64,000 nucleotides of DNA from Dehalococcoidia bacterium (GTDB taxonomy: Bacteria; Chloroflexota; Dehalococcoidia; Plut-88900). The stretch covers positions 2,912,001 through 2,976,000 of the forward strand of contig OZ240215.1 of NCBI GenBank assembly GCA_965197585.1, in the 5' to 3' direction. Under the pieces are notes generated by a model. That model saw only the letters and a list, made by a program, of their open reading frames with translations, ran no database searches and was not told the origin of the DNA. Numbering within the stretch: position 1 is the stretch's first letter; each line of letters begins with the position of its first letter. The position numbers and the translations under genes were made by a program. Of this stretch, positions 30,135 to 62,990 are shown in pieces.

Positions 30135-30246
30135 CCCCCCAGCCCTCTCCCATCGAGGGAGAGGGGATAAGGCGGCCCCACACCACTGCCGCTCTTGAGA
30201 CCCTTCGACCCGGCTCAGGGCGAGCGGAATGCCCAACCCTGGATTC

Positions 30247-31301: not shown

Positions 31302-31384
31302 CGGTTATGTAAGAGTGGGATCACCCTCACCCTAGCCCTCTCCCGTCGAGGGAGAGGGGATAAAGCGGCCCCTCGCAACCCCGC

Positions 31385-35275: not shown

Positions 35276-36250
35276 TTAGACGTTAACCTTCAAATCTGAT
35301 ACTGAGGGGACGCCCCCCAGGCCCGAGGCCTTGACGACGGCTTTGACTATGGCGCTGCTGAGGGCTCGGGCGGCGGCGGCGCCGAAGGGGGTGACGTCGG
35401 GGACGGGGGTGGCTTTGCCGGTGGAGAGGGCGAAGACGACGTCGCCGTCATACATGGTGTGGGCGGGGCGTATGGCCATGGCGAGGCCGTCGTGGGCCAT
35501 CTGGGCGACCTTGTTGGCCTGCTCCTTGGTGAGGGGGGCGTCGGTGGCGACGACGGCCAGCGTTGTGTTGCGCAAGGCCGAGGCCTCTGCGGGGGCAGCC
35601 GCGCTCTCCAATAGATCGACGCTGTCCAGGAAGCCGAGGTTGTCCGCGCCTCGGGGGCCGGCGATGAGGTTGCCGGTCTCGGCGTCTACGATACTGCCAA
35701 GTGCGTTGACTGCGACTAGGGCCCCGACGACGTAATCGCCAACCCGTCGGCTGGAGCAGCCGAGGCCGCCCTTCACAGCACGGTCGGGGCCGAGGGCCTT
35801 GCCGACGGTAGCGCCTGTTCCTGCACCCACGGAGCCCTGGGCGGGGGCCGTTGAGTCGGCGGAGACGCAGGCCTGGTAGCCGTTCTCGGGGCGGGGGCGG
35901 ACGGTGGGGTCGCCGATAGCCAGGTCGAAGAGGATGGCCGAGGCGACTATGGGTACGACACCGACGCCCACGGGATAGCCTATGCCACGCTCTTCGAGGT
36001 AGGTCATGACGCCGTCGGCGGCGGCGAGGCCGTAGGCGCTGCCTCCGCTGAGGACGACGGCATGGGCTTGCTGGACGAGGTTAAGGGGTCGAAGAAGGTC
36101 GGTCTCACGGGTGCCGGGTGCGGCGCCGCGAACGTCGACGCCGCCGACCGCGCCGTCGGGGCAGAGGACTACGGTGCAGCCCGTGACGGCTACGGAGTCG
36201 GTGTAGTGACCGACCTGGAGGCCTGGTACGTCGGTAATCGTGTCGTACAA
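35276..36250 (-). CDS. P1/DmpA-family (S58) aminopeptidase
   Basis: ITDVPGLQVGH, GVDVRGAAPGTRET, LSGGSAYGL, VGAGTGA, NTT, HTMYDGD. Confidence 0.92.
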   Translation of the reverse strand: MYDTITDVPGLQVGHYTDSVAVTGCTVVLCPDGAVGGVDVRGAAPGTRETDLLRPLNLVQQAHAVVLSGGSAYGLAAADGVMTYLEERGIGYPVGVGVVPIVASAILFDLAIGDPTVRPRPENGYQACVSADSTAPAQGSVGAGTGATVGKALGPDRAVKGGLGCSSRRVGDYVVGALVAVNALGSIVDAETGNLIAGPRGADNLGFLDSVDLLESAAAPAEASALRNTTLAVVATDAPLTKEQANKVAQMAHDGLAMAIRPAHTMYDGDVVFALSTGKATPVPDVTPFGAAAARALSSAIVKAVVKASGLGGVPSVSDLKVNV

Positions 36251-36466
36251 CAAAAACCCTCGCAACCCGACCGCGAGGGTTCGCTATACCTGTATTTTCA
36301 ACCCGGTCCGGCTCTATATGGATGCCGGCCATTGGGTCTATGTATGGCTCGGGGCTGTGATGCTTACCGCCGCTCGCGGTCGGCTGCGGGGGCTATTGTA
36401 GCGGGTGGCGGGGTGGGGTTCAAGCCCGTGGACTCGTTCGGTGGGTTAGTGGCTCGCCGGGCTCTT

Positions 36467-37114
36467 ATTCAGTCCTCCTGAGGCGGGTCCTCCATAGGCG
36501 GATGTTCCCCGCCTATGACGGACTTGCAGCATATTCGATTGTGGGGGGGTGGGGTTTGCACTCTCTCTATTGGGTTTTGGGTAGGCGATGGAAGGTCCGG
36601 GACTCGGGCGCGGGGGGCGGGATACGAGCCTGGTTCAGCCCCGTGTTTCTGTGGATACGTGGCAGACAAGCGAGAGGGCCTTCGCTTGAGGGCATCTCTA
36701 CCACCAGTTTTGGCTGACCCACTCGGAGGGGTGGGGAGCACGTTTTCTCGCTGCCGTCGCTGGTTGTATGGGGGTCTCCGAAGGGAACGACGGGGGAGAT
36801 GTTTCCAAGGGCGTAAAGGCCCGAGGTGTTTGGCCCGGCGTGAGCGGGGCTCATTTGGGCAGGGCTCCTTTGAGGGGAGCGTGCCGCTTAAAATTGTGGA
36901 CCATCCATCGCCTTGGAGTCAGGGAAGGGGCACGGGACCCGGTGGGATGAGGAGATGGCGCCGTTTTCCGCCTGAGGCGGACGTACCGGCTTGTGCCGCG
37001 GACCTGCGCGAGGGCCGTTGGGATGGGCTGGGGCGTTGAGTCCTCTGTCGGGTCGGGTGGGCTTCCCTAGGTTTTTGGTTCCTCCTTGGTGAGTTAGGGT
37101 GGTGTTCGAACGGT
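36467..37114 (-). ncRNA. putative large structured non-coding RNA cassette, copy A
   Basis: No credible ORF; promoter upstream; leader, closing stem and tail shared with 58148-58858. Confidence 0.55.
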
Positions 37115-37118
37115 GAGT

Positions 37119-37147
37119 ATAATAGCACTAATGTTCACATGGGTCAA
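37119..37147 (-). promoter_or_regulatory. sigma70-like promoter of cassette A
   Basis: TTGACC-17 nt-(TGc)TATTAT; conserved in copy B. Confidence 0.65.
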
Positions 37148-37548
37148 GGGGTTGGTGTCACACTTGGGAGAGGGACACCGCCCCAGATTCCTCGCGGGGC
37201 ATCGGAATGACACGGGGAAAGGGGATCCGCCCCAGCCCCACAGGGGAACCCTCACCCCCTTAATCCCCCTCTCACGCCACAGGCGCACGCCCAGGCGCAT
37301 CTGCGACATCTTCGACCCTTAGAGCCTTCAAGGGAGAGGGCGAGATAAGAACAGAGGCCCACGTGCGTGCAGAGCACGCACGTGGGCCTCTAGTTCAGTA
37401 CTGGGGGGAAAGGGGATGGATTCCCGATCGGGGCGGGAGGGGGGAGAAGAAGGGCGTAATGGCAAAGGATGAGGTGGTATATGGGCAGGCGTTTTAGATC
37501 CCTCGCGGGGCATCGGGATGGGAAGAGGAGTCGGGGGTGAGGGTTCGG

Positions 37549-38099: not shown

Positions 38100-38750
38100 A
38101 TGGGATTGCAGATGAGCAAACTGTATTGGACGAAAGGTCCGGCATATGTAAGTGTTTACTGGGCATCACCGCCATCTAAAGACATTGCACTAGAAGTGAT
38201 ACGTATCTTGGAAGAGTTTCGGTCTCAATGTCAGAGACTCTGGTTTGCGTTCGACGGTATGATGAATGGCCGCCCCCTAGCTGTTCAGCGCTTCAAAGAA
38301 ATGAATGGAAAGAGGGACAACAGGCTTTCTGTTGGGAACCAATTTCCTGATCAAGAACAGAGCATTGGGAATTCGACCATCGCCCAGATCAAATTCGGAG
38401 AGCTAGTTGACGCCATGGCTGAGGGCGGTGAGTTCGAACAATTAAATGCAAAGGCATATCTTGTGTTTATCGATGCCATTTGGGAGGACTCAGTGCGTAC
38501 AAGGATTGCGCAAATCCTCGAAGTTGAAGAGCGGGATGTCAAGTGTGATCTCTTGGCTGACCTACGACGTTTGCGAAACCTAGTACTTCACCGCAGTGAG
38601 AAAGCTAAGCAAGATTACTTGGAGAAGGCCACATTGCTGCCTCAGATTTGGGATGTGAATCCCGATGATGTGGTCATTACTACTTCTATGTTACATGCCT
38701 TGGTTGAGCAATTGAATGCAGTGCAAATTCATGTAGGTAAGGCGACTTGA
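38100..38750 (+). CDS. hypothetical protein with HEPN-like RxxxxH motif
   Basis: DAIWE...DLRRLRNLVLH; low GC; start at ATG 38100 or 38112. Confidence 0.6.
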   Translation: MGLQMSKLYWTKGPAYVSVYWASPPSKDIALEVIRILEEFRSQCQRLWFAFDGMMNGRPLAVQRFKEMNGKRDNRLSVGNQFPDQEQSIGNSTIAQIKFGELVDAMAEGGEFEQLNAKAYLVFIDAIWEDSVRTRIAQILEVEERDVKCDLLADLRRLRNLVLHRSEKAKQDYLEKATLLPQIWDVNPDDVVITTSMLHALVEQLNAVQIHVGKAT

Positions 38751-38905
38751 AGGCTGCCCGCCGTGTGCCGCCGAGATGGATCACATTTGTCCGAACTGCT
38801 GCGGGGAGACCTCGGAGGGGGTGAGGGGTGGGCATGAAGAGGTCCGATATCTTTTGATAGGCGATTGACTATCCCTTACACGAGTAAATAGAAGAGGATA
38901 TAGCC

Positions 38906-39835
38906 ATGACATGGCATAGAGCTATACCCGACGTCGACTCCTGGCAGCCTGCGGAGGGTAAGGACGACACACTTCGGAATTCGTTAATGGTCACGTGTCA
39001 ACTCGTACAGGCACGTATCGCTGCGCGGGCTGACGCTGAGATTAGGTTCAATATACGGAACTTTGATTCTGGCTCTGCATTGGAAGATATCGTACGCGAA
39101 GAATTGACCGACCTTCTTCCAAATCGCTATGAGGTCTCTGCGGGGGTAATCAACGATCGCATGGGACGCACGGCTGGCGACTGTGATTTGATTGTACGAG
39201 ACCCCAATTGGTCTCCTGTGATCAAAACTGGTGCAACCGGTCAGTCCCGACGGTTTCATTTCCCAATCGAAGGGGTGTATGCAGTAACGGAGATTAAACA
39301 AACTCTCGGGCGCAAAGAATTAGATGCAGCCATGAAAAAGTTAGTTATGGTTGCTAGGCTCGTGCGGCCAGAAAATCCCTACGGACATATAACCGAAAAT
39401 CAACACATTACTGATTTCGATAGGCCAGGTGCTACACTTAATCCCCTCCATACGACAATTTTCGCCACCAGACTTCCAAACCGTACCAAATTCGATGATG
39501 TTGTTAATCGCTTTGCAGAAATCAATGCTAAGCTGAGCCGAAAGGATATGGTGAAGATGCTTTGCGTGTTAGGGCATGGCACAGCTTGGTATTCAGTCGA
39601 GAGTGGTGATCCGTACAATGCGACGTACATGGCTGATGGAAACAGGCAATTAATAATGCAAATTAACCACAAAGAGCCTAAGAACTCTTTCTATCGCTAT
39701 TACGTGGAGATCTTGGGACACCTAACGCGCTCAGTGCTAAGGCTCCACGAAATATCGAACATTTATGGTGAGCCACCACCGCCTAGGGACACTCGATCCT
39801 TCCCAAAAGCTGCATTTAATGCAAACGGAGCATAA
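38906..39835 (+). CDS. DUF6602-like PD-(D/E)xK nuclease-fold protein
   Basis: GSALEDIVRE.L..LLP.RY.V.AGVIND..G.TAGDCDLIV...PIEGVYAVTEIKQ. Confidence 0.7.
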   Translation: MTWHRAIPDVDSWQPAEGKDDTLRNSLMVTCQLVQARIAARADAEIRFNIRNFDSGSALEDIVREELTDLLPNRYEVSAGVINDRMGRTAGDCDLIVRDPNWSPVIKTGATGQSRRFHFPIEGVYAVTEIKQTLGRKELDAAMKKLVMVARLVRPENPYGHITENQHITDFDRPGATLNPLHTTIFATRLPNRTKFDDVVNRFAEINAKLSRKDMVKMLCVLGHGTAWYSVESGDPYNATYMADGNRQLIMQINHKEPKNSFYRYYVEILGHLTRSVLRLHEISNIYGEPPPPRDTRSFPKAAFNANGA

Positions 39836-40032
39836 TTGGAGGTGAAGAGTGCTAGGGCCTGTCGCTTTGTGGGGCCAAGAAAAGTTGCTTGATGGGCAGG
39901 CGTTTGAGATTCCTCGCGGAGCCTCGGAATGGGGGGGAACCTTGGGATGATGGGGAAGGGGGGCTTTCGGATGACAGGTGTCGGGGAGGGTGCTATAAAG
40001 GCGGGCGGGGCGCTTAGATAAGGGGAGGGCCA

Positions 40033-40431
40033 ATGGGTGAAGGGAAGATTTTCGACTGGGATGGGGTGGAACCGTTGCCTCCCGACGAGCGGTATCCGGG
40101 GGTAAGGGCAAGGGTGGTGGATGGGAAGAATATGCAGCTGATCTGGGCGGAGTTCCAGCCCGGCAGCTCCTATCCGCTCCACTCCCATGAGCGAGAGCAG
40201 TTCAGCTTCATGCTGAGCGGGCGGATGCGGCTAACGGTGGGGGACCAGGTATCGGAAATCGGGGCGGGGGATATGTGGTATGCGCCGAGCAACGTGGAGC
40301 ACGGGGGCGAAATTTTGGGTGACGAGCCGGTGGTATTTGTCGACGCGTACTCTCCTCCCCGCCCAAAAGCTCAAAGAGGGTGGAGAGCAGATGTCGGGGC
40401 AGTTGGGAATCGGGATAACCCTTCTGCCTGA
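40033..40431 (+). CDS. cupin domain protein
   Basis: HSHEREQ...LSG...GDMWYAPSNVEHG. Confidence 0.88.
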   Translation: MGEGKIFDWDGVEPLPPDERYPGVRARVVDGKNMQLIWAEFQPGSSYPLHSHEREQFSFMLSGRMRLTVGDQVSEIGAGDMWYAPSNVEHGGEILGDEPVVFVDAYSPPRPKAQRGWRADVGAVGNRDNPSA

Positions 40432-40550
40432 GGCGCACGCCCAGGCGCATCTTCGACATCTCCGACCTTCCGCCTTAGGCGGACTGTAAGCGCGGGGCCT
40501 CGGGATGACAGTAAGTTGAGTCTTGGAATGATAAGTAAAGGGAGTCGGGT

Positions 40551-40937
40551 TTGTTGATTGTGTGGGTTGGGGCGGGGGGTGTGGTGGGGGCTGTGGCGCG
40601 CTACCTGGTGGTGGTTTGGCTCAATGGTGGGATGGGCGGGGTAGGGTTTCCGTATGGGACGCTGGCTGTGAACGGGGTGGGGTGTTTTCTTATCGGGCTG
40701 GTTGTGGGGTTTGCGGAGGCGCATAGGCCGCTGAGCCCCGAGGTCCAGGCATTCCTTGTCATAGGCGTTCTCGGGGGGTTTACGACGTTCTCGGCGTTCG
40801 GGATGGATACGATCAGGTTGTTCAGGGACCACGCCTACCTCGCAGGCTCGGCTAACGTGTTGCTGCAGGTGGCGGTGGGGCTGGGGGCGGTGGTGGTCGG
40901 GCTTCGGGTCGGGCAGGCGCTCAAGGCCGTGTGGTAG
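40551..40937 (+). CDS. crcB: fluoride channel CrcB/FluC
   Basis: GG..GA.ARY, FPYGTL.VN, G.LGGFTTFSAF. Confidence 0.95.
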   Translation: MLIVWVGAGGVVGAVARYLVVVWLNGGMGGVGFPYGTLAVNGVGCFLIGLVVGFAEAHRPLSPEVQAFLVIGVLGGFTTFSAFGMDTIRLFRDHAYLAGSANVLLQVAVGLGAVVVGLRVGQALKAVW

Positions 40938-41098
40938 CCGAGGGTAAGGCGCCCACGAGTGACGCCCTTACGGGGGAAAGGAACAGGCCCCTCTCCAGAT
41001 TCCTCGCGGGGCCTCGGGCATGTTCGTTTGGGGAGCCTTGCCACGGACTGGGCCCTGGGCTAGAGTCGGGCTATGCATCCCTTGCGAGGAGGACTTTG

Positions 41099-42325
41099 GT
41101 GATGATTGATGGTCGAGCGTTGGCGGAGGGGGAGGGGTGGGGGCCGGCTTTTTCTGCCGAGGAGTATGGGGATCGGGTCGAGAAGGTGCGTCGGGAGATG
41201 GGGTGCCGGGGAATCGACCTTCTGCTGGTCTCGTCGCCGCCCAACATCACATACCTGACGGGCTACGACATGATCTGGTACTACCTGACCAGCCCCGTGA
41301 GCGTAGCCGTTCACGCCGAATCCGGGCAGACACTATTCTTCGAGGTGCCTTATCATCAGCCGACCGTCGAGTGGCACGCGGTGGTCGACGATGCGGAGTA
41401 TTTCCGGGATGGGCTGTCTCCTGCCGAGTCGATAATCAGTGCGCTGAAGGGGCGGGGGTGGGTTAAGGGGAACGTGGGTGTCGAAGAGTGGAGCCGGGCG
41501 CCGAGCGGGGTGGTAATCAACGAGATAAAGCAGGGCCTGGCCGGTGCGGGCGCGAATGTCGTGGACGGATCGTGGGTCGTGGACCGGGTCAGGCTTATCA
41601 AGTCGGCGGCGGAGGTAGAGGTGATGCGGAAGGCGGCGTCCATAGCGGACAGGGCCATGGAGACGGTGCGCGGACACATTCGGCCGGGAGTAACGGAAAT
41701 CGAACTGGCAGGTGTCGTGCTGCAGGCAATGATGAAGGAGGGCGGCGGAGACCCAGCGATCCGCGCTGCGGTGAGGTCAGGGCCGAGGTTCGGGGCACGG
41801 CACTCGGCGCCCAGCCACCGGAAGCTGCAGCAAGGCAACCTGGTGTGGATCAACCACTGCGGGTCATATCATCGATACCACGCGGACCTGGGTCGGCTAT
41901 TCTCGCTGGGTGAGCCTTCGCGGAACTGGAGGTGGTTGATGGACAAGACGTGCGGGAGCGTCGATCACGTGATTTCGAAGGTGCGGCCGGGGGACCCCAC
42001 GGGAGTGGCTCAGAAAGCCATGGACGAGTACGTAGACTCGATGGGGCTGCGGCCCTATGTGGCCTACGTGAGCGGGTATAACATGGGGATTGCGATACCG
42101 CCGGATTGGGTCGGGCACACGTTTATCGACCCGGACACGGGCTTCGAGACAGCGAGCTACGATCCGGGCATGATCACGAACTATGAAAACCTGTTCACGG
42201 TTCTCGATTCCGACCCCGGCTGGAAGGGTGGCACGGGCGGCGGCTTCATCGAGACGATTCTGATGACCGACACGGGCCTCGAGACACTCTCAGGGTTGGG
42301 CAGGAACGTGACGGTTATCGAGTAG
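41099..42325 (+). CDS. M24 Xaa-Pro peptidase/creatinase-family hydrolase
   Basis: FSAEEY..R, NITYLTGY, RLIKSAAE, RYHADLGR. Confidence 0.85.
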   Translation: MMIDGRALAEGEGWGPAFSAEEYGDRVEKVRREMGCRGIDLLLVSSPPNITYLTGYDMIWYYLTSPVSVAVHAESGQTLFFEVPYHQPTVEWHAVVDDAEYFRDGLSPAESIISALKGRGWVKGNVGVEEWSRAPSGVVINEIKQGLAGAGANVVDGSWVVDRVRLIKSAAEVEVMRKAASIADRAMETVRGHIRPGVTEIELAGVVLQAMMKEGGGDPAIRAAVRSGPRFGARHSAPSHRKLQQGNLVWINHCGSYHRYHADLGRLFSLGEPSRNWRWLMDKTCGSVDHVISKVRPGDPTGVAQKAMDEYVDSMGLRPYVAYVSGYNMGIAIPPDWVGHTFIDPDTGFETASYDPGMITNYENLFTVLDSDPGWKGGTGGGFIETILMTDTGLETLSGLGRNVTVIE

Positions 42326-42465
42326 GGTGGGGGGTAGGCCCAGCCCCAGATCCCTCCCGCCTCGGCGGACTTTCAGCACGGGGCCTCGGGATGACACGGT
42401 TGGGGGTGGGGGGATTCCCTGTACTATCGAGTGCAGGTAGAACAAGGCGGGATGGAAGGTGACCC

Positions 42466-44193
42466 ATGGTGGGTGTGATTGCAACGCTGGTGGCCCTTGC
42501 GGCCATTGGTCTGTTGTTCGTGCTGGACCCCGGCGGGGCTATCGCCGAGAGTGGCTTTCCCGATTTCCGGGAGATGGACTGGAAGCAGCTGACAGCCTGG
42601 GGCTTCCGGACGATTGGCGTGGGCGTCGGGGCGCTGCTCTCGCTGTTGCTGTGGCTCAAGTTTCGGTCCTGGAAGGAGATCAAGTACCCGGGCTCATCGG
42701 AGCCGGTAACCCGGCAGCCGAGCGAACTGTCGGCGGCGGCGGTGTCGGTGCTGGAAGGCCGGACGGTCAGCGACCGAACGCTGCTGGCGGCGATAGTCGA
42801 GATGTGCCAGCGCGGCACGCTGCAATTGGAGTGTGTCGGAGCAGAGGGAGGTTACCGGTACCGGCTATCGAAGAAGGGGTCCGCGCAGTTTGACTGGGAG
42901 CAGTTGATTTGCAACAGATTGCCAGCGCGCCCCACAACGATTCAAGAGCTGCACGACGTGATAAACGAGCGGGAGGATGTCATCGGCGACCAGTTGGGGA
43001 AGCACCTCCAGGGCCGGGGCCTCTTCGATGACAACGCGATGCGGGTAATGAGGGAACATGGAGGTGATGGGTTCGAACTGGAGTTATTGGCCGGGATTTT
43101 GCTCGGCGTTGGCGGCGGGTTTTGGACGGCTTTATGGCTGTTCCAATGGTGGGCGAACTCCCTGATCGGCGCGGCGATCGGCTTCATATATTTGTTGGTT
43201 GCGATGTCGACGAACGTGGGTAAGCTGCGGCCAACGGACGCCGGGGCATATGAGATAGGTCAGTGGCTTAGTTTGAAAGAATCCCTGCCCAGACCTGACC
43301 GTCCTCCCGGTCGGGACGAACCCGACTCCATGTTGGCCTATGCTATCGCACTGGATGCGGCAAAGCCCTGGCTGGATGTCTCGGTCCCGGCCCCATCATG
43401 GTTCGGCTCAGGTGAGGCAGCCTCCCTGGGGGCCCACGACCTGGGCTTGGCCTATCACGGCTTTATGTCCGCACCGGCGTGGGGTCTCGCCGGACGGTCC
43501 TCAGGCGCGGCAGAAGCGGCAGCGGGGCCGGGCAGCGAGGCAGAGCAGGAACTGATGCGGTACATCGGGGAGGCTGAAAGGACGGCGAATAGCGAGGTCG
43601 GTGGGGGAACGGTGTATGAGAGACCACTAGCTGAGGGCGTCACGCGTGAGTCGGAGGCGCGAGGGGAAACAATGACAGATCCATCGAGTTCGCCGCTGGA
43701 CTATCGGAAGTACCGGGTTGCGGGGCAGGTAGAGGAGCCGCCGAAGGGTGGAGGGGGGTGCGGCAGGTGCTGCAAGTGGGTGTTCCGTCTGCTCGGCGTG
43801 GGGGTGCTGGTCGCGGCGGCCGTGATTGGCTACAACCTGGTCTCACCGGCTGTCGAACCGTGTCCGGAGAACTCTCCGACTATCCCGCCACCCGGGCCGT
43901 TACTTGCGGTGCTTGACGTGTACGTGGACGAGTGCGTGAGCGTTGACGGGGAGGTGGTGTCGCAGGGTGTCGGCGAGCTGGTGGTGGAGATGGACCGGGG
44001 AGATTTCGTGCAGTGGGTGCTAGTCCGTGGACCGGAGGAAGTCTTTGAGGGGGTTTTCGTAGGCGAGAGTGTTCACGTGACCGGACGGATCGGGGAGGAT
44101 GAGGAAGCGGGATACGTGGTCCATTACGGAGTGGACCGCGGGTGGTGGGGGAATCTCCGGGAGAATCTGCCGGGGGACGTTTTCTCGCCGTAG
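42466..44193 (+). CDS. DUF2207-like membrane protein with C-terminal OB-fold-like extension
   Basis: P..LS...V..L, AAIVEMCQRG.L, LAYAIALD, PSWF; several TM segments. Confidence 0.6.
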   Translation: MVGVIATLVALAAIGLLFVLDPGGAIAESGFPDFREMDWKQLTAWGFRTIGVGVGALLSLLLWLKFRSWKEIKYPGSSEPVTRQPSELSAAAVSVLEGRTVSDRTLLAAIVEMCQRGTLQLECVGAEGGYRYRLSKKGSAQFDWEQLICNRLPARPTTIQELHDVINEREDVIGDQLGKHLQGRGLFDDNAMRVMREHGGDGFELELLAGILLGVGGGFWTALWLFQWWANSLIGAAIGFIYLLVAMSTNVGKLRPTDAGAYEIGQWLSLKESLPRPDRPPGRDEPDSMLAYAIALDAAKPWLDVSVPAPSWFGSGEAASLGAHDLGLAYHGFMSAPAWGLAGRSSGAAEAAAGPGSEAEQELMRYIGEAERTANSEVGGGTVYERPLAEGVTRESEARGETMTDPSSSPLDYRKYRVAGQVEEPPKGGGGCGRCCKWVFRLLGVGVLVAAAVIGYNLVSPAVEPCPENSPTIPPPGPLLAVLDVYVDECVSVDGEVVSQGVGELVVEMDRGDFVQWVLVRGPEEVFEGVFVGESVHVTGRIGEDEEAGYVVHYGVDRGWWGNLRENLPGDVFSP

Positions 44194-44486
44194 GGTTGGG
44201 GGAATCCTCGCGAGGGAGGGGGTGGGGGGCTGGTAGAGCCAACCAAGCTGGACAAAAGCGAGAACTTTTTCGCGCAGATTTGTTTTGGGTCTATATTCAA
44301 GCCTTTATCCCACCTTATCGGGCAAAGTGATCAACGAAGACAGAACTGGCATGTCGGTAACAGCTGCGGGCAACCAGATTGACAATGGGCAGCATTGGCC
44401 GGTACTGTTTCGATGGTAAGGCGGGCATTTTGTGCTCCGTATACGCCAATGTTACCAGGCCAACGAGGAAGGGGTGTGACCGCGAG

Positions 44487-56398: not shown

Positions 56399-58090
56399 CT
56401 ACTTCCTGCGGGGGGTGCCGCCCTTGCTGATCTTCCCCCAGGTGTCCCTGAGCGAGACCGTGCGGTTGAACACCGGCGATCCAGTCTCGGAGTCCGGGTC
56501 CACGGCGAAGTAGCCAAGCCGCTCGAACTGGAACCTTTCGCCCGGGAGGGCATCGGAGAGGCTTGGCTCGACCTTGGCGTCGGCGACGACTTCCAGCGAA
56601 TCGGGGTTCAGGGTCGAGAGGAAGTCTGCTTCCTCGTCGGGGCGCTCCGACGTGAAGAGGTGCTCGTACAGCCGGATCTCTGCCTCTACGGCGTGTCTAG
56701 CCGAGACCCAATGGATCGTGCCCTTCACCTTCCGGCCGTCGGGCGACTGTCCGCCGCGGGTCTTGGGGTCGTATGTGCAGCGCAGCTCGACGATCTCACC
56801 GGCGTCGTCCTTGACCACGTCGGTGCAGGTGATGAAGTAGCCGTAGCGCAGCCGGACCTCGCGCCCGGGGGCGAGGCGGAAGAATTTTTTCGGCGGGTCC
56901 TCCATGAAGTCGTTCCGCTCGATGTACAGCTCCCGGGAGAAGGGCACCTTGCGAGATCCCGCGCCGGGGTCTTCGGGGTTGTTAACGGCGTCAAGGTGCT
57001 CGACCTGCCCATCGGGGTAGTTTTCGATAACCACTTTGAGGGGCCTCAGGACGGCCAGCACTCGAGCCGCCCGCGTGTTCAGGTCGTCGCGGATGGCGTG
57101 TTCCAGCAGGGCGATTTCAATGACGTTCTGCCTCTTGGCAACCCCGACCAGATCGCAGAACCGGCGTATGGACTCCGGCGTATAGCCGCGCCTGCGAAGG
57201 CCGGCAAGGGTCGGCATCCGGGGGTCGTCCCAGCCGCTCACATGCCCCTCGTTGACGAGCTGGGCCAGTTTGCGCTTGCTCATCACGGTATGGCTCATAT
57301 TCAGCCGTGCGAACTCGATTTGCTGCGGGTGGTAGATGTCCAGGGCGTCGAGGATCCAGTCGTAGAGGGGCCGATGGTCCTCATACTCCATTGTGCAGAT
57401 CGAGTGGGTGACACCCTCCACGGAGTCGGATTGCCCGTGGGCGAAGTCGTACATGGGGTAGACCACCCACTTATCACCCGTGCGGTGATGCGGCGTCTTC
57501 AGGACCCGGTACAGAACGGGGTCCCGCATGTTGATGTTGCCGGAGGACATGTCGATTCTGGCCCGCAGGACTCGCTGCCCTTCGTTAACCTCGCCGTTCT
57601 TCATGCCTTCGAATAGGGCCAGGTTTTCCTCGACGGAGCGGTTCCTGTAGGGGCTCTCGACACCCGGCTCCGTGAGGGTGCCGCGGTATTTGCGAATCTG
57701 CTCCTGGTCCAGGTCGTCGACGTAGGCCTTGCCCTTGTTGATGAGGTCGATTGCGAAGTCGTAGAGCTTGTCGAAGTGGTCGGAGGCGAAGTAGAGGTGC
57801 TCGCCCCAGTCCCAGCCGAGCCAGCGGACATCCTCCAGGATGCCGTCGACGAACTCCTCCTCCTCTTTGGCGGGGTTGGTGTCGTCGAAGCGCATGTGGC
57901 AGCGGCCACCGTACTCCTGGGCCAGCCCGAAATTGAGGCACATGGACTTGGCGTGGCCGATGTGGAGGTAGCCGTTGGGCTCAGGCGGGAAGCGGGTGAT
58001 GACCTGTCCGCCGAACCGCCCGGAGGCGTTGTCGGCCTCGACGGCGGAGCGCACGAAGTCCAGGGAGGGTTTGGTTTCGGTTTCAGTCAT
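56399..58090 (-). CDS. glnS: glutamine-tRNA ligase
   Basis: [45 protein letters not shown]. Confidence 0.97.
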
Positions 58091-58147
58091 GGTGTTGGTC
58101 GGCGATTTGATGCCGACACATTATAGTCGGGTGGAAGGGGGAGGGGG

Positions 58148-58858
58148 ATTCAGTCCTCCTGAGGCGGATCTTCGATTGTGGGGGTTTTGATTGTTTTGTT
58201 GGTAGGGGGTTGGCGATGGAAGACGTCCGTTGAGCCTGTCAGCCTCTACGCTCGTGCGGTGTTCCGGCTGTCGGGGGCCTAGAGGGTCCGCTCCGCGGGT
58301 GAGGAGGAGGGACTTGCAGCCGGCCGCACCCTAGCGCTCGATGGAGGGCTCCGACTGCCCGGGCAGACAGTCAGGCCTTGACCCCGCCTCTGAATGCCCG
58401 CAGGCATGATGGGGGCCAGTGATCGGGCAGTAGCCCCCTCAGATATCCTATGTTACGTGGGCCACCCGAGGGTCTAGGCGGCCCATCAGCCCCCTGCTTG
58501 ATATGGCGTAAGCTCGCAAGGCGGGCCAACCTCCGAGAGGTAGTCTCGGCCGGGGATAGCCGGTCCGCTACCCCATGCTTGATATAGCGTAAGCTCGCTG
58601 CTAACCGACCACCGAGACGGCGTCTCGGCGGGGTATGGCCGGTCCGCTATGGCTCTGTCCAGGGCGTCTTTCCATCGCCTGGGTAGGGAAGGGGCACGGA
58701 ACCCGATGGGATGAGGAGATGGCGATTGTCGCTTGAGCCGCGGGCCCCGTGTATGGGCCGTTGGGATGGGCTTGGGCGTTGAGTCCTCGGGTGGGTCGGG
58801 TGGGCTTCCCTGGGTTTTTGGTTCCTCCTTGAGATAGTTAGGGTGGTGTTCGAACGGT
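58148..58858 (-). ncRNA. putative large structured non-coding RNA cassette, copy B
   Basis: Paralog of 36467-37114 with a different interior. Confidence 0.55.
58491..58649. repeat. tandem ~80-bp structured repeat (2 units) inside cassette B
   Basis: CCCC.TGCTTGATAT.GCGTAAGCTCGC...CCGAGA..TCTCGGC...GCCGGTCCGCTA at 58491 and 58571. Confidence 0.85.
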
Positions 58859-58862
58859 GGGG

Positions 58863-58892
58863 ATAATAGCACGGGTGTGCGAGTCGAGTCAA
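58863..58892 (-). promoter_or_regulatory. sigma70-like promoter of cassette B
   Basis: TTGACT-18 nt-(TGc)TATTAT. Confidence 0.65.
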
Positions 58893-59287
58893 GGGGCTGA
58901 TTGCACACTTGGGGGGACACCGCCCCAGCCCCACCGGGGAACCTTCACCCCCTTGATCCCCCTCTCACGCCACAGGCGCACGCCCAGGCGCATCTTCGAC
59001 ATCTTCGACCCTTAGGGCCTATAAGGGAGAGGGGGAGGGAAGAACAGAGGCAGATGTTGGCGCTTCTGCGCCAACGTCTGCCTCTAGTTCAGTACTGGAG
59101 AGAGGAGGGATGGATTCACGAAAGGGGTCGGGAATGACGGGGGGGGTCGGAGGGGGTGGGGGGGTGAGCCCGACGGATGGTCGCTCAGCATTGGCAAGGG
59201 GCGTTGTCATAAAGTAGATGTCGACCTGGTTAGGTAGTGAGTGTGCCGCAGATTAGAGCCTCCTAACGACGTGAATTGTATACAGTG

Positions 59288-61583: not shown

Positions 61584-62990
61584 ATGAACTCTTTTAACCG
61601 CGTCCCTAGACTTGTCTTATTCGTCCTAGCCGCCCTCGTGGCCCTCGCCCTCGTGGTGGCCTGTGGTGGTAGTGAGCCGACGGCGATGCCGACTTCGACG
61701 GCTGTGCCCACCACCCCGCCCACGGCGACCCTCGCTCCGACTCAGGAATCCACGGAAGCTCCCACGCCGACTCCGGACCCCCTTGCGCAGAGGGTGTGGG
61801 ATACGGCGGTGATGCTGGCGGAGGAGTTGAGCCCCAGGGAGAGTGCAACGGAGGAGGAGCTTAGGGCGGCGAAGTATTTGGCGGGTCGGTTCTCGGGGTG
61901 GGGGTATGAGGTGGGGTTGCAGGACTTTGAGGCGGTGGAGATTAGTAGGGCGACCCGGCTGGTGGTCACGGGGCCGGGGGATGCCGTGGAGGGGTTGGCG
62001 CGTCTCGGGTTCAGGGACGGCGAGGGTGTATGGATGTTTGCCTTTCCGGCGGACCCGTCATCCCTGGCCGAGGAGGGGTACAGGCTGGAGGGAGACCTGG
62101 CGTACGCGGGCCGGGGCACGGGGGAGGACTTCTCGGGGGTCGACCTTAGGGGCAAGATCGCGCTGATAGAGGGGGGTGGGGGGGTGTCTTTGAGGGAGAA
62201 GGTGGAGGGCGCTGCGGAAGCCGGTGCCAAGGCAGCGGTGATATTTAATGAGGAGACCAATGCTGGGGCGTCCTGGGAGAGATTGTACGAAGAAACGATG
62301 ATTCCGGCCATCGGGATCGGGAATCGGGAGGGGCGGGGGTTGTTGCGGGCTTTGGAAACGGGGGGCACCGTGGAGGTAAGGGTCTCCAAATCGCCGTTGG
62401 CGCAACAGCCGTCCCGGAACGTCGTCGCAGAGCTGGAGAATGACATAGAGAACGACGAGACGCTGATAATCGGGGCGCACTACGATACGACGCCCGATTC
62501 TCCCGGCGCCAATGACAACGGCAGCGGCGTGGCGGCGGCCCTGGTCGTTGCGGAAGAGCTATCGGACGACGAGCTTCCCTTCGACCTGAGGTTCGTGCTT
62601 TTCGGGTCGGAGGAGATAGGGCTTAACGGCAGCTTTGCGTATGTCGGGGGGCTGGGGGAGGGGGGGTCGGAGAACATATTGGCGATGATTAACCTGGACG
62701 TGGTGGGGACGGGGAAGCTGACGGGGATTGGGTCGGACAGCATGGTCGAGTTGTCGGTGGAGACGGCGTCGGATATCGGTTTCGAACTGGGCACTGTGGA
62801 CCTTGGTGCGGGCTACGGCTCCGACCACATAGCCTTCATGCTGGCCGGCATCGACGTTATCTTCCTGTTCGCCGACGACGTGACCTACATCAACTCGCCC
62901 CTGGACACGCTGGAGCACCTGCAACCCGAGCCTCTGGCGCAGAGTGTCGAGTTGACGCTGGAGATAGTCGAGCGGCTGGCGGAGCAATAG
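61584..62990 (+). CDS. M28 aminopeptidase lipoprotein with PA domain
   Basis: Lipobox VVACG; GKIALI; GAHYD, PGANDNGSG, FGSEEIGLNGS, NLD, SDH. Confidence 0.92.
   Translation: MNSFNRVPRLVLFVLAALVALALVVACGGSEPTAMPTSTAVPTTPPTATLAPTQESTEAPTPTPDPLAQRVWDTAVMLAEELSPRESATEEELRAAKYLAGRFSGWGYEVGLQDFEAVEISRATRLVVTGPGDAVEGLARLGFRDGEGVWMFAFPADPSSLAEEGYRLEGDLAYAGRGTGEDFSGVDLRGKIALIEGGGGVSLREKVEGAAEAGAKAAVIFNEETNAGASWERLYEETMIPAIGIGNREGRGLLRALETGGTVEVRVSKSPLAQQPSRNVVAELENDIENDETLIIGAHYDTTPDSPGANDNGSGVAAALVVAEELSDDELPFDLRFVLFGSEEIGLNGSFAYVGGLGEGGSENILAMINLDVVGTGKLTGIGSDSMVELSVETASDIGFELGTVDLGAGYGSDHIAFMLAGIDVIFLFADDVTYINSPLDTLEHLQPEPLAQSVELTLEIVERLAEQ

What the first reader, a model, noticed from the sequence alone, without database searches (positions are those of the whole stretch)
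36467..37430. Paralogous non-coding expression cassettes with constant frame and swappable structured cargo (copy A; copy B at 58148-59120)
Seen: two loci 22 kb apart share, on the minus strand, a TTGAC-17/18-TGcTATTAT promoter, a ~180-190 nt C-rich leader (ACCGTTCGAACACCACCCTAACT..AAGGAGGAACCAAAAACC.AGGGAAGCCCACCCGACCC...CGCCATCTCCTCATCCCA.CGGGT.CCGTGCCCCTTCCCT), a long-range stem and a tail (CCCCCACAATCGAA..CCGCCTCAGGAGGACTGAAT). The stem core GGCGATGGA/TCCATCGCC is constant while its inner extension changes on both arms together (A: GGTCC/GGACC, arms 36898-36913 and 36583-36598; B: AGACG/CGTCT, arms 58662-58679 and 58212-58228). Between the arms lie unrelated hairpin-rich interiors of ~300 nt (A) and ~430 nt (B). 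The AAGGAGG has no start codon after it. ~280 bp of upstream palindromic DNA is also shared. Inference: a family of large ncRNAs in which a processing-type stem (as in rRNA operons or retron a1/a2 arms) releases or presents exchangeable RNA modules; I recognise no named family. G-U pairs favour the minus strand in several cargo hairpins but the plus strand in parts of the leader, so a folded ssDNA/cDNA or non-autonomous mobile element remains possible.
Basis: partly seen in the sequence, partly recalled or inferred. Interest (0 to 1): 0.9.

Follow-up and report, generated by a model that had tools for sequence, protein, structure and literature searches.

The report
Promoter-homing mobile elements carrying structured RNA genes
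The two loci are members of a family of dozens of protein-less jumping DNA elements in an uncultured sponge-associated bacterium; each carries its own strong promoter and a long folded RNA with an exchangeable middle part, and they insert just in front of host gene promoters.

Summary
Copies A and B belong to a family with 57-58 copies in this 3.43 Mb genome. A covariance model of the leader finds 23-70 matches per genome in all 9 genomes of the genus and none in 148 other Dehalococcoidia genomes searched.

Each unit has a conserved sigma-70 promoter, a C-rich leader of about 190 nt, a 10-17 bp long-range stem around a 305-546 nt non-coding cargo (16 sequence clusters), and a CA-rich tail.

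Many copies also have imperfect terminal inverted repeats and a 5-bp target duplication. They sit exactly 5 bp upstream of a TTGAC (-35) box of a host promoter. A sister species holds an exact empty site.

At orthologous sites whose flanks are 95-99.7% identical, the interior has been replaced in 4 of 10 pairs. The "swappable cargo" is therefore real and arises between fixed ends.

There is no Rfam match, no coding signal, no reverse transcriptase and no TnpB. Contigs from RNA libraries cover cargo A.

Best reading: a non-autonomous DDE-type (IS481-like) element whose passenger is a promoter-driven structured RNA gene. What the RNA does is unknown.

The parts
37190..37430 (-). Copy A: upstream repeat modules (REP-like palindromes, including a 19-bp-stem terminator-like hairpin at 37352-37392). 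These are separate repeats found at many other sites.
   Evidence: The 'up' query gave 65 blastn hits genome-wide, often without a leader beside them. Hairpin found.
37119..37164 (-). Copy A promoter module: GTGTGACAC, CCCC, -35 TTGACC (37142-37147), 17 nt, TG + TATTAT (37119-37124).
   Evidence: The motif GTGACAYnnnYCYMTTGAY occurs 66 times in the genome, 48 of them heading family copies.
36913..37112 (-). Copy A leader RNA (predicted start near 37112): 5' palindrome GTTCGAAC, SD-like AAGGAGG (37081-37087), and a conserved domain closed by GGGAAG/CUUCCC and GAGGA/UCCUC.
   Evidence: Model R1 scores this copy 171 bits.
36897..36912 (-). Copy A 5' arm of the long-range stem (GGCGATGGATGGTCCA).
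36599..36896 (-). Copy A cargo (298 nt), hairpin-rich and non-coding. Largest cargo cluster: 26 members, 11 in this genome.
   Evidence: RNA-library contigs cover it.
36584..36598 (-). Copy A 3' arm (GGACCTTCCATCGCC).
36459..36583 (-). Copy A tail: CA-rich linker, CACAATCGAA, hairpin modules, then CCGCCTCAGGAGGACTGAAT.
36429..36458 (-). Copy A right-end inverted repeat (GGCGAGCCACTAACCCACCGAACGAGTCCA), a diverged version of the family right end.
36395..36428 (-). Host target: CGGGC (the 5 bp next to the end), then the resident promoter TTGAAC-17-TACAAT of the Peptidase_S58 gene (35276-36265).
   Evidence: The same junction is seen in G001 and G002, and the site is empty in G004.
58900..59120 (-). 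Copy B: upstream repeat modules shared with A.
58863..58892 (-). Copy B promoter: TTGACT-18-TATTAT with TG.
58680..58856 (-). Copy B leader RNA.
   Evidence: R1 scores it 180.8 bits.
58663..58679 (-). Copy B 5' arm (GGCGATGGAAAGACGCC).
58229..58662 (-). Copy B cargo (434 nt) with an internal ~80-nt duplicated hairpin unit. Its cluster has 18 members, 6 in this genome.
58212..58228 (-). Copy B 3' arm (GGACGTCTTCCATCGCC).
58148..58211 (-). Copy B tail. It has no right-end repeat. The glnS start lies about 58 nt downstream.

Best explanation
A and B are members of a genus-restricted family of non-autonomous, transposon-like elements (about 0.7-1.1 kb, no ORF) whose passenger is an RNA gene.

SHOWN:
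- The elements have imperfect terminal inverted repeats (TGATCCCGTTCACATAGAGGGGTGACA ... GGTGTGTCACTAATCTACCGAACGAGTACA).
- They make a 5-bp target duplication.
- They sit exactly 5 bp upstream of a TTGAC-type -35 box of a resident promoter, mostly co-oriented with the downstream gene.
- Presence is polymorphic between species, and an exact empty site exists.
- Each carries a conserved extended -10 sigma-70 promoter, a conserved leader, a universal long-range stem, a variable structured non-coding cargo, and a CA-rich tail.
- At orthologous insertions the interior has been replaced while the ends and flanks stayed the same.

INFERRED:
- Movement is catalysed in trans by a DDE (rve) transposase of the IS481 kind. 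A 1056-bp IS in the same genome has a related end and also a 5-bp duplication.
- The -35 box is chosen because it resembles the (T/G)TGACA motif inside the element's and the IS's own ends.
- Interiors are exchanged by homologous recombination or gene conversion between copies, with the conserved promoter/leader and tail as homology arms.
- The RNA is made from the C-rich strand.
- The RNA is protected at its 5' end by a start-less SD (STAB-SD type).
- The RNA may be cut by RNase III at the 10-17 bp stem, so that the cargo becomes a separate stable RNA.
- Transcription may end by Rho in the C-rich, G-poor tail.

What the RNA does, for the element or for the cell, is not known.
For: Copy number and range:
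- 57 leader copies by blastn.
- Model R1 finds 58 matches in G000 and 23-70 in each of the 8 other genomes of the genus. It finds 0 in 3 other genera of the family and 0 in 145 other genomes of the class.

Mobility:
- 30 elements with both ends, at about 20 distinct sites in 5 genomes. The 5-bp flanks are identical at 5/5 positions in 15 and at >=4/5 in 23. Mismatched-pair control: 12 of 870 at 5/5.
- Right-flank positions 6-10 read T 28/30, T 23/30, G 27/30, A 18/30, C 17/30.
- 22 of 27 right ends are followed by a hexamer plus TAnnnT at 16-18 nt. The same holds for 6.7% of all 5946 TTGAC pentamers.
- The G000 copy at 3362432(-) is absent from G002, where a single GAGGC is followed by TTTAAC. 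In G000, GAGGC flanks both ends.
- Locus A is empty in G004 and G007, a remnant in G003, and occupied in G001, G002, G005, G006 and G008.
- Distances between left and right ends in 5 genomes are 734-1131 bp only.

Ends:
- Left against right end: 6 of 2000 shuffles score as high.
- Right end against the left end of the IS: 0 of 2000.
- The IS has a 5-bp duplication and an rve_3/rve transposase whose best NCBIfam hit is IS481.

Interior exchange:
- In 4 of 10 orthologous pairs, flanks are 72-99.7% identical but stem+cargo is only 44-52% identical.
- In one pair the identity breaks just after GTGACAT and resumes in the tail, and the rare left-end variant TTATCC is shared.

RNA gene:
- Promoters found by scan and conserved in the alignment of all 57 copies.
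- Leader structure: 92.6% of cells paired against 41-63% when slid; 7 pairs changed on both sides; 0 of 500 shuffles reach the covariation score.
- Cargo folds have 40-125 pairs, with 3-9 pairs changed on both sides per cluster.
- Single-sequence folds of A and B both give the leader domain plus the closing stem, z = -4.65 and -2.58.
- Core stem: G.U 34 against A.C 3.
- No codon periodicity (p 0.13-0.95), and most indels are not multiples of 3.
- Contigs of 4 of 4 RNA-library runs (one study) lie on 36579-36966, with pieces of 119-209 nt showing 0-1 differences.

Host enzymes present: Rho, RNase J, RNase III.

Tail composition: C 37%, G 15%.
Against: - No autonomous element with these ends was found in any of the 9 genomes.
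- The left end is not significantly like the IS end (817 of 2000 shuffles). The ends of three other rve IS types are not similar either.
- The IS's transposase scores below NCBIfam's IS481 cut-off (184 against 224 bits).
- Only 13 of the 57 G000 copies were recovered with both ends at the thresholds used. About 27 have a right end. Copy B has neither end, and copy A lacks a recognisable left end.
- The long-range leader helices never vary, so covariation neither supports nor refutes them. RNAalifold proposed a different pairing for the SD region.
- The RNA evidence is contigs from RNA libraries. They give no strand, no ends and no level, and DNA carry-over is not excluded.
- Conservation of the interior may owe much to gene conversion rather than to selection. 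Copy A against its G005 orthologue: cargo 99.7% and leader 89.8% identical, while third codon positions of the neighbouring gene are 80% identical.
- RNase III cleavage, the STAB-SD effect and Rho termination are inferences from sequence and from the presence of the enzymes.
Confidence: 0.7

Rival explanations
1. The elements act mainly in cis as portable 'strong promoter plus long 5' leader' cassettes. Transcription from the element's promoter reads through the tail and right end into the downstream host gene. The stem or STAB-SD shapes the stability of that mRNA. The cargo is largely irrelevant.
For: - By a crude longest-ORF rule, 42 of 57 copies are co-oriented with the next gene, and 24 of 27 of those with a right-end match.
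- No intrinsic terminator lies between tail and downstream gene in A or B.
- In B the scan finds no other promoter upstream of glnS within 57950-59250.
- Promoter-bearing MITEs that drive neighbouring genes are known (passages in PMC10969869).
Against: - The resident promoter is left intact right behind the element in 22 of 27 cases, so the host gene does not need the element's promoter.
- The tail is rut-like (C 37%, G 15%) and Rho is present.
- A cis role does not explain the conserved, compensated leader hairpins or the 300-500 nt structured cargos.
- No RNA contig was seen to bridge tail and gene, but contigs cannot show absence.
Confidence: 0.3
2. The RNAs are trans-acting functional RNAs of the cell: a new class of large structured ncRNA, with a common leader domain that binds a protein or acts as a ribozyme and variable cargo domains with different specificities. 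Mobility is secondary.
For: - The promoter is conserved in all 57 copies.
- The leader has invariant unpaired stretches (ACUCAACG, AGCCCAUCCCAA, GGCNCAAGC) and compensated hairpins.
- The family is kept in all 9 species of the genus at 23-70 copies.
- Cargo clusters are shared between species.
- RNA-library contigs lie over cargo A.
Against: - The family is restricted to one genus.
- Presence or absence differs between close species.
- No 9-mer is shared by more than 5 of the 16 cargo clusters.
- No associated protein gene was found.
- High copy number and gene conversion can mimic conservation.
Confidence: 0.25
3. A retron-like, cDNA-based or rolling-circle (HUH) ssDNA element: the stem is an a1/a2-type or origin-type structure, and copies arise through RNA or ssDNA intermediates.
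For: - A long-range stem encloses a variable structured part.
- There are many hairpins.
- The right end is more widespread than the left end, which resembles one-ended transposition.
Against: - No RVT_1 match in the genome (0 candidates) and no TnpB.
- The promoter lies upstream of the transcript start yet is copied with the element.
- Inverted ends plus a 5-bp duplication and an exact empty site fit DDE cut-or-copy-and-paste.
- HUH families (Y1/Y2) were not searched.
Confidence: 0.03
4. Decayed protein genes or remnants of full-length insertion sequences with no RNA-level role.
For: Stop-free stretches of 72-182 codons exist in the cargos, as expected in C-rich DNA.
Against: - No 3-base periodicity of variable columns in 6 of 6 clusters, and gap lengths are mostly not multiples of 3.
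- No start codon follows the SD in 0 of 133 leaders.
- Compensatory pair changes are present.
- No similarity to the IS interiors was seen. The cargo queries hit only family-type units.
Confidence: 0.03

Closest known systems
Correia elements (Neisseria) and other promoter-bearing prokaryotic MITEs (MITEAba12, BrickBuilt, QMITE1)
   Same: Both are non-autonomous, bounded by inverted repeats, make target duplications, have many copies, lie mostly just upstream of genes, and carry sigma-70-type promoters. Some give rise to small RNAs (passages of the review PMC10969869).
   Different: - This element is 734-1131 bp, not about 100-300 bp.
- Its interior is a conserved leader domain of about 190 nt plus a stem-closed 305-546 nt cargo with compensatory changes.
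- Its interiors are swapped between copies.
- It inserts at a fixed 5-bp distance from a -35 box.
- RNase III processing of Correia transcripts is recalled, not read here.
Mobile insertion cassettes (MICs, e.g. MIC231 of the Bacillus cereus group; recalled, not read here)
   Same: IS-type ends flank a passenger that is not a transposase, and the cassette is moved in trans.
   Different: The passenger here is an RNA gene with its own promoter, not a protein gene. No matching autonomous IS was identified, only one with a related end.
IS481-family insertion sequences
   Same: - TG...CA termini, a short duplication and an rve-type DDE transposase.
- The resident 1056-bp IS has a 5-bp duplication, and its end aligns with the family's right end (0 of 2000 shuffles).
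   Different: - The family encodes no transposase.
- The left end is not significantly similar to the IS end.
- The IS targets a REP-like hairpin (ATTCC), whereas the family targets the 5 bp before TTGAC.
- The transposase is below NCBIfam's IS481 cut-off.
rRNA operon leader with an RNase III processing stem (textbook knowledge, recalled)
   Same: The order is the same: strong promoter, leader, then a long-range helix that brackets the mature RNA. RNase III is encoded in the genome.
   Different: - The cargo is not rRNA.
- This genome's own 16S gene has an unrelated promoter and processing stem.
- Cleavage is untested.
Large structured bacterial ncRNAs (OLE, GOLLD, ROOL, HEARO; recalled)
   Same: Both are several hundred nucleotides long, highly structured and non-coding, and some occur in many copies or are linked to mobile DNA.
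   Different: No match to any of the 4227 Rfam families, even at E <= 10, other than noise. The family is restricted to one genus. The architecture is a modular frame plus cargo.
STAB-SD 5' stabiliser (cry3A mRNA, Bacillus thuringiensis)
   Same: An SD-like sequence near the 5' end with no start codon. It is complementary to the 16S 3' end (CCUCCUU). RNase J is present. The mechanism was read in passages of PMC4113751.
   Different: The organism and context differ, and the effect on stability has not been tested here. The SD may instead be one strand of an internal helix.

Membership tests
MITE / non-autonomous IS derivative | Terminal inverted repeats | tested here: met
   Left against right end: 6 of 2000 shuffles score as high. 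Both ends were recovered in 13 G000 copies and in 17 copies from 4 other genomes. Copy A has only a right end and copy B has neither.
MITE / non-autonomous IS derivative | Target-site duplication and an empty site in relatives | tested here: met
   5-bp repeats are identical in 15 of 30 and match at >=4/5 in 23 of 30. Exact empty site in G002. Locus A is empty in G004 and G007.
MITE / non-autonomous IS derivative | No transposase inside | tested here: met
   No coding signal. All left-to-right end distances are 734-1131 bp.
MITE / non-autonomous IS derivative | Small size (usually under about 300-500 bp) | tested here: not met
   734-1131 bp. The usual size range is recalled, not read here.
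MITE / non-autonomous IS derivative | A parent IS with matching ends in the same genome | tested here: inconclusive
   The right end resembles the end of the 1056-bp IS (0 of 2000 shuffles) but the left end does not (817 of 2000). Other rve IS types are not similar.
Retron (msr-msd) | Adjacent reverse transcriptase | tested here: not met
   PF00078: no match in the whole genome, which is 92% complete.
IS200/IS605 TnpB omega-RNA | TnpB gene present, and no inverted ends or duplication | tested here: not met
   PF07282: no match. The element has inverted ends and a duplication.
Any Rfam family | Score at or above the gathering threshold | tested here: not met
   Only 4 tRNAs in the window. At E <= 10 the best hits on A and B are far below threshold and lie on unrelated families.
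RNase III processing stem (rRNA-type) | Long-range helix bracketing the released RNA | tested here: met
   57 of 57 copies have both arms. Uninterrupted paired runs of 10-17 bp in 109 of 139 elements.
RNase III processing stem (rRNA-type) | Cleavage in the stem, and mature ends at the stem | not testable with these tools
   Only contigs of RNA libraries were available. The RNase III gene is present.
STAB-SD 5' stabiliser | SD-like sequence in a 5' region that does not start translation | tested here: met
   133 of 139 leaders carry it, and 0 of 133 have a start codon 4-13 nt downstream.
STAB-SD 5' stabiliser | Protection from 5'-3' decay by a bound 30S subunit | not testable with these tools
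   RNase J gene present. No decay data.
CsrA-sponge RNA | CsrA protein in the organism | tested here: not met
   PF02599: no match.

The most novel reading that the evidence does not exclude
The family is a new kind of bacterial mobile element: a DDE-mobilised 'RNA-gene transposon' that homes to sigma-70 promoters, at a fixed 5 bp from the -35 box. Its conserved leader domain of about 125-190 nt is a functional RNA, for example a self-processing RNA, a transposase cofactor or a host-factor-binding module. That domain would serve as a common platform for a library of exchangeable structured cargo RNAs, shuffled between loci like cassettes.
Probability: 0.2. Interest if true: 0.85.

Novelty: new variant of a known kind. 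Interest (0 to 1): 0.6.

Why it matters
If the reading holds, three points are of wider interest.

1. It would be a bacterial transposable element with a precise preference for the position 5 bp upstream of -35 hexamers of real promoters. Of 27 right ends, 22 are followed by a complete promoter-like site. This recalls the way some eukaryotic elements home to transcription start regions. It also offers a natural tool for tagging promoters in an uncultured lineage.

2. The passenger is not a protein gene. It is a promoter-driven RNA of about 650-750 nt with a conserved domain and a stem-closed variable domain. MITE-derived small RNAs are known, but a modular RNA gene of this size is not among the cases I read.

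3. Interiors are replaced between fixed ends at orthologous sites whose flanks are 95-99.7% identical. That makes this a clean natural system for studying gene conversion among dispersed repeats.

The family makes up about 1.3% of a 3.4 Mb symbiont genome. Because it sits in front of many housekeeping genes (glnS, uvrA-like, tRNA, a remnant at groES), it may shape expression across the genome. If instead the RNA has no function, the finding is an unusually large and well-defined MITE-like family, which is ordinary in kind.

Tried and rejected
**Known RNA families.** Rfam at gathering threshold on the window and at E <= 10 on both loci gave only tRNAs and noise. This included a 14.7-bit 'twister-sister' hit in B's leader (E = 8.7) that has no counterpart in A.

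**Phage or viral origin of cargos.**
- blastn (distant mode) of A and B against 50,697 phage records: no match.
- The 28-nt leader pattern in viral contigs: 0 stretches.
- In metagenome contigs: 5 short contigs of one assembly.

**CsrA sponge.** The leader and tail hold many GGA motifs, but there is no CsrA gene.

**Retroelement or TnpB guide RNA.** No RVT_1 and no TnpB.

**rRNA-operon relative.** The single 16S and 23S genes are unlinked, and the 16S has its own unrelated promoter and stem.

**Coding.** Rejected.

**A shared core motif in all cargos.** No 9-mer is shared by more than 5 of the 16 clusters.

**A 5'-3' panhandle.** In the fold of A the 5' GUUCGA pairs with the tail's UCGAAU. Copies with other 5' palindromes keep the same tail, as seen by eye. 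I therefore treat this pairing as chance.

**Other rve-type IS as parents.** Their ends are not similar, though their boundaries were set crudely.

**Purifying selection from the A/G005 orthologue pair.** Cargo is 99.7% identical against 80% at third codon positions. I do not use this as evidence of function, because the pattern is mosaic (leader 89.8%) and conversion or recent exchange explains it equally well.

**Read laying: parts without cover.** The tail (36467-36578), most of the leader, and the flanking coding bins 35608-36241 and 38144-44483 had no or almost no contig cover in the four RNA runs. With contigs at depth 3-6, this says nothing about ends, read-through or relative expression.

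**Literature.** Four searches found no description of this family. Supplementary files were not consulted.

Full report
**1. What is at the two loci**

On the minus strand, A (window 36429-37164 plus upstream repeats to 37430) and B (58148-58892 plus repeats to 59120) share upstream repeat DNA, a promoter, a leader, a stem core and a tail. Their interiors are unrelated.

The promoter scan calls TTGACC-17-TATTAT (A) and TTGACT-18-TATTAT (B), both with an upstream TG. Dinucleotide shuffles give 0.2-0.3 such sites per region.

Rfam has nothing at these places.

**2. It is a large family**

- blastn with the promoter+leader finds 57 copies in the 3,429,519-bp single-contig genome.
- All 57 have GGCGATGG (at most 1 mismatch) at the same offset, and CCATCGCC 317-519 nt downstream.
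- The promoter is conserved in all 57 aligned copies: GTGACAY, CCCC, TTGAC, 17-18 nt, then an extended -10.
- From promoter to tail the 57 units sum to about 45.5 kb, or 1.3% of the genome.
- The same promoter module also heads some 18 further units with other leader types. At least one of these uses the same closing stem.

**3. Range**

- DNA search: 8 of 8 other genomes of the genus have many copies. None was found in 3 other genera of the family or in 29 genomes of the class.
- A covariance model of the leader (R1: 172 positions, 21 pairs) finds 58, 42, 54, 23, 70, 52, 42, 41 and 37 matches in G000-G008. It finds none in the 3 other genera of the family and none in 145 further genomes sampled from the class, 110 genera in all.
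- Record titles call the carriers 'MAG: Dehalococcoidia bacterium'.
- The RNA runs that hold the sequence are labelled sponge metagenome.

**4. Anatomy of the RNA part**

*5' end of the leader.* The leader begins with a short perfect palindrome that differs between subfamilies: GTTCGAAC, GGTCTAGACC, GACTAGCTAGTC or GATTGGCCAATC types.

*SD-like motif.* An A(A/G)GGAGG follows in 133 of 139 leaders, and none of these has a start codon behind it.

*Conserved domain.* Next comes a conserved domain. In single-sequence folds of both A and B it is closed by GGGAAG/CUUCCC and GAGGA/UCCUC.

*Test on 60 diverse leaders.*
- 92.6% of cells are paired, against 41-63% when the partners are slid.
- Seven pairs, all in two local hairpins, show changes on both sides.
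- 0 of 500 shuffles reach the covariation score.
- The long-range helices never vary, so they remain untested.
- RNAalifold alone preferred pairing the SD with CCUUC.

*Closing stem.*
- It has an uninterrupted paired run of 10-17 bp in 109 of 139 elements.
- It comes in two co-varying extension classes.
- In its 8-bp core it has 34 G.U against 3 A.C. That points to the C-rich strand as the folded strand.

*Cargos.*
- The 139 elements fall into 16 cargo clusters.
- The six largest clusters fold into 40-125 consensus pairs, with 3-9 pairs changed on both sides.
- They show no codon periodicity (p 0.13-0.95), and their indels are mostly not multiples of three.
- No 9-mer is shared by more than 5 clusters.

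*Tail.* It is A 36.5%, C 37.3%, G 14.9%. No intrinsic terminator follows in A or B.

**5. It is mobile DNA**

*Ends.* A subset of copies begins with TGATCCCGTTCACATAGAGGGGTGACA and ends with GGTGTGTCACTAATCTACCGAACGAGTACA. The two ends are imperfect inverted repeats (6 of 2000 shuffles score as high).

*Target duplication.* There are 30 elements with both ends, at about 20 distinct sites, because several sites are shared by G000, G002 and G005.
- The 5 bp on either side are identical in 15 elements and match at 4 or more of 5 positions in 23.
- Mismatched pairs give 12 of 870.

*Target site.*
- The five bases after the duplication read TTGAC: T 28, T 23, G 27, A 18, C 17 of 30.
- 22 of 27 right ends are followed by a hexamer plus TAnnnT at 16-18 nt. 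The same holds for 6.7% of all 5946 TTGAC pentamers and 1.5% of random positions.
- That scan's loose pattern also gave 33 unrelated hits, none with a -10. I set those aside by comparison.

*Empty sites.*
- The G000 copy at 3362432(-) is missing in G002, G005, G003 and G001.
- G002 shows the exact empty site, with a single GAGGC followed by TTTAAC-17-TAAGGT. The host promoter therefore predates the insertion.
- At locus A the site is empty in G004 and G007, holds a remnant in G003 and is occupied in six species.

*No autonomous version.* None was found. All left-to-right end distances in five genomes are 734-1131 bp.

**6. A candidate helper**

- The genome has 29 rve-type matches, no RVT_1 and no TnpB.
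- One IS of 1056 bp occurs about 20 times at roughly 99% identity. It always lies in the REP-like hairpin GTCATTCC|GAGGCTCCGCGAGGAATC, with a 5-bp duplication ATTCC.
- Its left end aligns with the family's right end (score 9; 0 of 2000 shuffles). The family's left end does not match it.
- Its transposase has rve_3/rve/rve_2 domains. Its best NCBIfam match is IS481, below the curated cut-off (184 against 224 bits).
- Both kinds of ends contain (T/G)TGACA about 20 nt inside. This resembles the TTGAC of the target. I infer that the enzyme is drawn to end-like sequence, but this is not shown.

**7. Interiors are replaced between fixed ends**

- Among 10 orthologous pairs (G000 against G002 or G005), four have stem+cargo identity of only 44-52% while most flanks are 91-99.7% identical.
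- In the pair with 99.7% and 99.1% flanks, identity ends just after the left end's GTGACAT and resumes in the tail. Both copies share the rare left-end variant TTATCC. It is therefore one insertion whose interior was later exchanged.
- At locus A the same right junction (ACA|CGGGC TTGAAC) holds three different cargos in G000, G001 and G002.
- The glnS locus (B) is likewise occupied in G000, G005, G001 and G002, with different spacing between leader and gene.
- Recombination between the conserved leader and tail is the simplest cause, but that is an inference.

**8. RNA evidence**

- Contigs from 4 of 4 RNA-library runs (one study) lie on 36579-36966.
- Individual pieces include 190 nt with 0 differences and 209 nt with 1 difference.
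- Short pieces also lie on 36989-37046.
- Contigs give neither strand nor ends, and DNA carry-over cannot be excluded.

**9. How it most likely works**

*Shown:* a promoter-bearing, protein-less, inverted-repeat-bounded element that duplicates 5 bp and lands directly in front of -35 boxes.

*Inferred:*
- It is mobilised in trans by an IS481-like DDE transposase.
- The C-rich strand is transcribed from the internal promoter.
- The start-less SD, complementary to the 16S 3' end seen, binds 30S subunits and shields the 5' end from RNase J. The gene is present. The mechanism was read in passages of PMC4113751.
- RNase III (gene present) may cut the closing stem and free the cargo.
- Rho (gene present) may end transcription in the tail.

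The role of the RNA is open. The rivals are a cis promoter/leader cassette and a trans-acting RNA family.

**10. Comparison and novelty**

The nearest known things are promoter-bearing MITEs such as Correia and the MITE-derived small RNAs of Coxiella (passages of PMC10969869). Also close are mobile insertion cassettes (recalled).

The present family differs in five ways:
- its size;
- a conserved structured RNA gene as passenger;
- the frame-plus-cargo build;
- the replacement of interiors at fixed sites;
- the exact promoter-proximal target.

I file it as a new variant of a known kind. Four literature searches found no description of it.

Noticed in passing
G000:C1, e.g. 1248220-1249275; about 20 copies (outside the window): A 1056-bp IS481-like insertion sequence, about 99% identical between copies, always inserted in the same REP-like hairpin (GTCATTCC|GAGGCTCCGCGAGGAATC) with a 5-bp duplication ATTCC. 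It is a REP-targeting IS that looks recently active.
   Followed up: partly
window 30140-30166 and 31335-31360: REP-like palindromes CCCTCTCCC-NTCGA-GGGAGAGGG carry by far the highest RNA-contig depth of the 19-kb stretch apart from the tRNAs. Many loose ends and joints lie there, so many paralogues or other organisms contribute.
   Followed up: no
window 36254-36282 (-): A terminator-like hairpin lies between the Peptidase_S58 gene's promoter (36395-36423) and its coding region. The 159-nt stretch is 98.7% identical between G000 and G005, while third codon positions are 80% identical. It may be an attenuator or riboswitch. Only sub-threshold 'pan' and 'His_leader' Rfam hits were found.
   Followed up: no
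G000:C1:683850-684520 (-), and similar units at 62860, 1590859, 2280200, 3022084, 3035253, 3062928, 3386770: A second leader type (…CAGGCCCGAC…GTCGGCCCTAA…) uses the same promoter module. At 684 kb it also uses the same closing stem (AGCGATGGAAGGTCC…GGACCTTCCATCGCC). There it is followed by a small ORF beginning MPRGGRRPGAGAPKGNYNAFKHG.
   Followed up: no
G000:C1:3404960-3405080: A solo left end of the family (38 nt identical to the consensus) sits directly upstream of the groES-groEL promoter and its CIRCE operator.
   Followed up: no
G000:C1:659340-660640: A different rve-type IS (423-aa ORF) is inserted into family copy 660618+, just upstream of the element's own -35 box.
   Followed up: no
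G000:C1:680161-681758 and 3105501-3108636: The genome has a single 16S and a single 23S rRNA gene about 2.4 Mb apart, so they are unlinked.
   Followed up: no
window 37352-37392 (-): A 19-bp-stem palindrome with a T-rich trail lies directly upstream of copy A. The same module sits upstream of B at about 59041-59092. It is a terminator-like insulator between the divergent tRNA cluster and the element.
   Followed up: no
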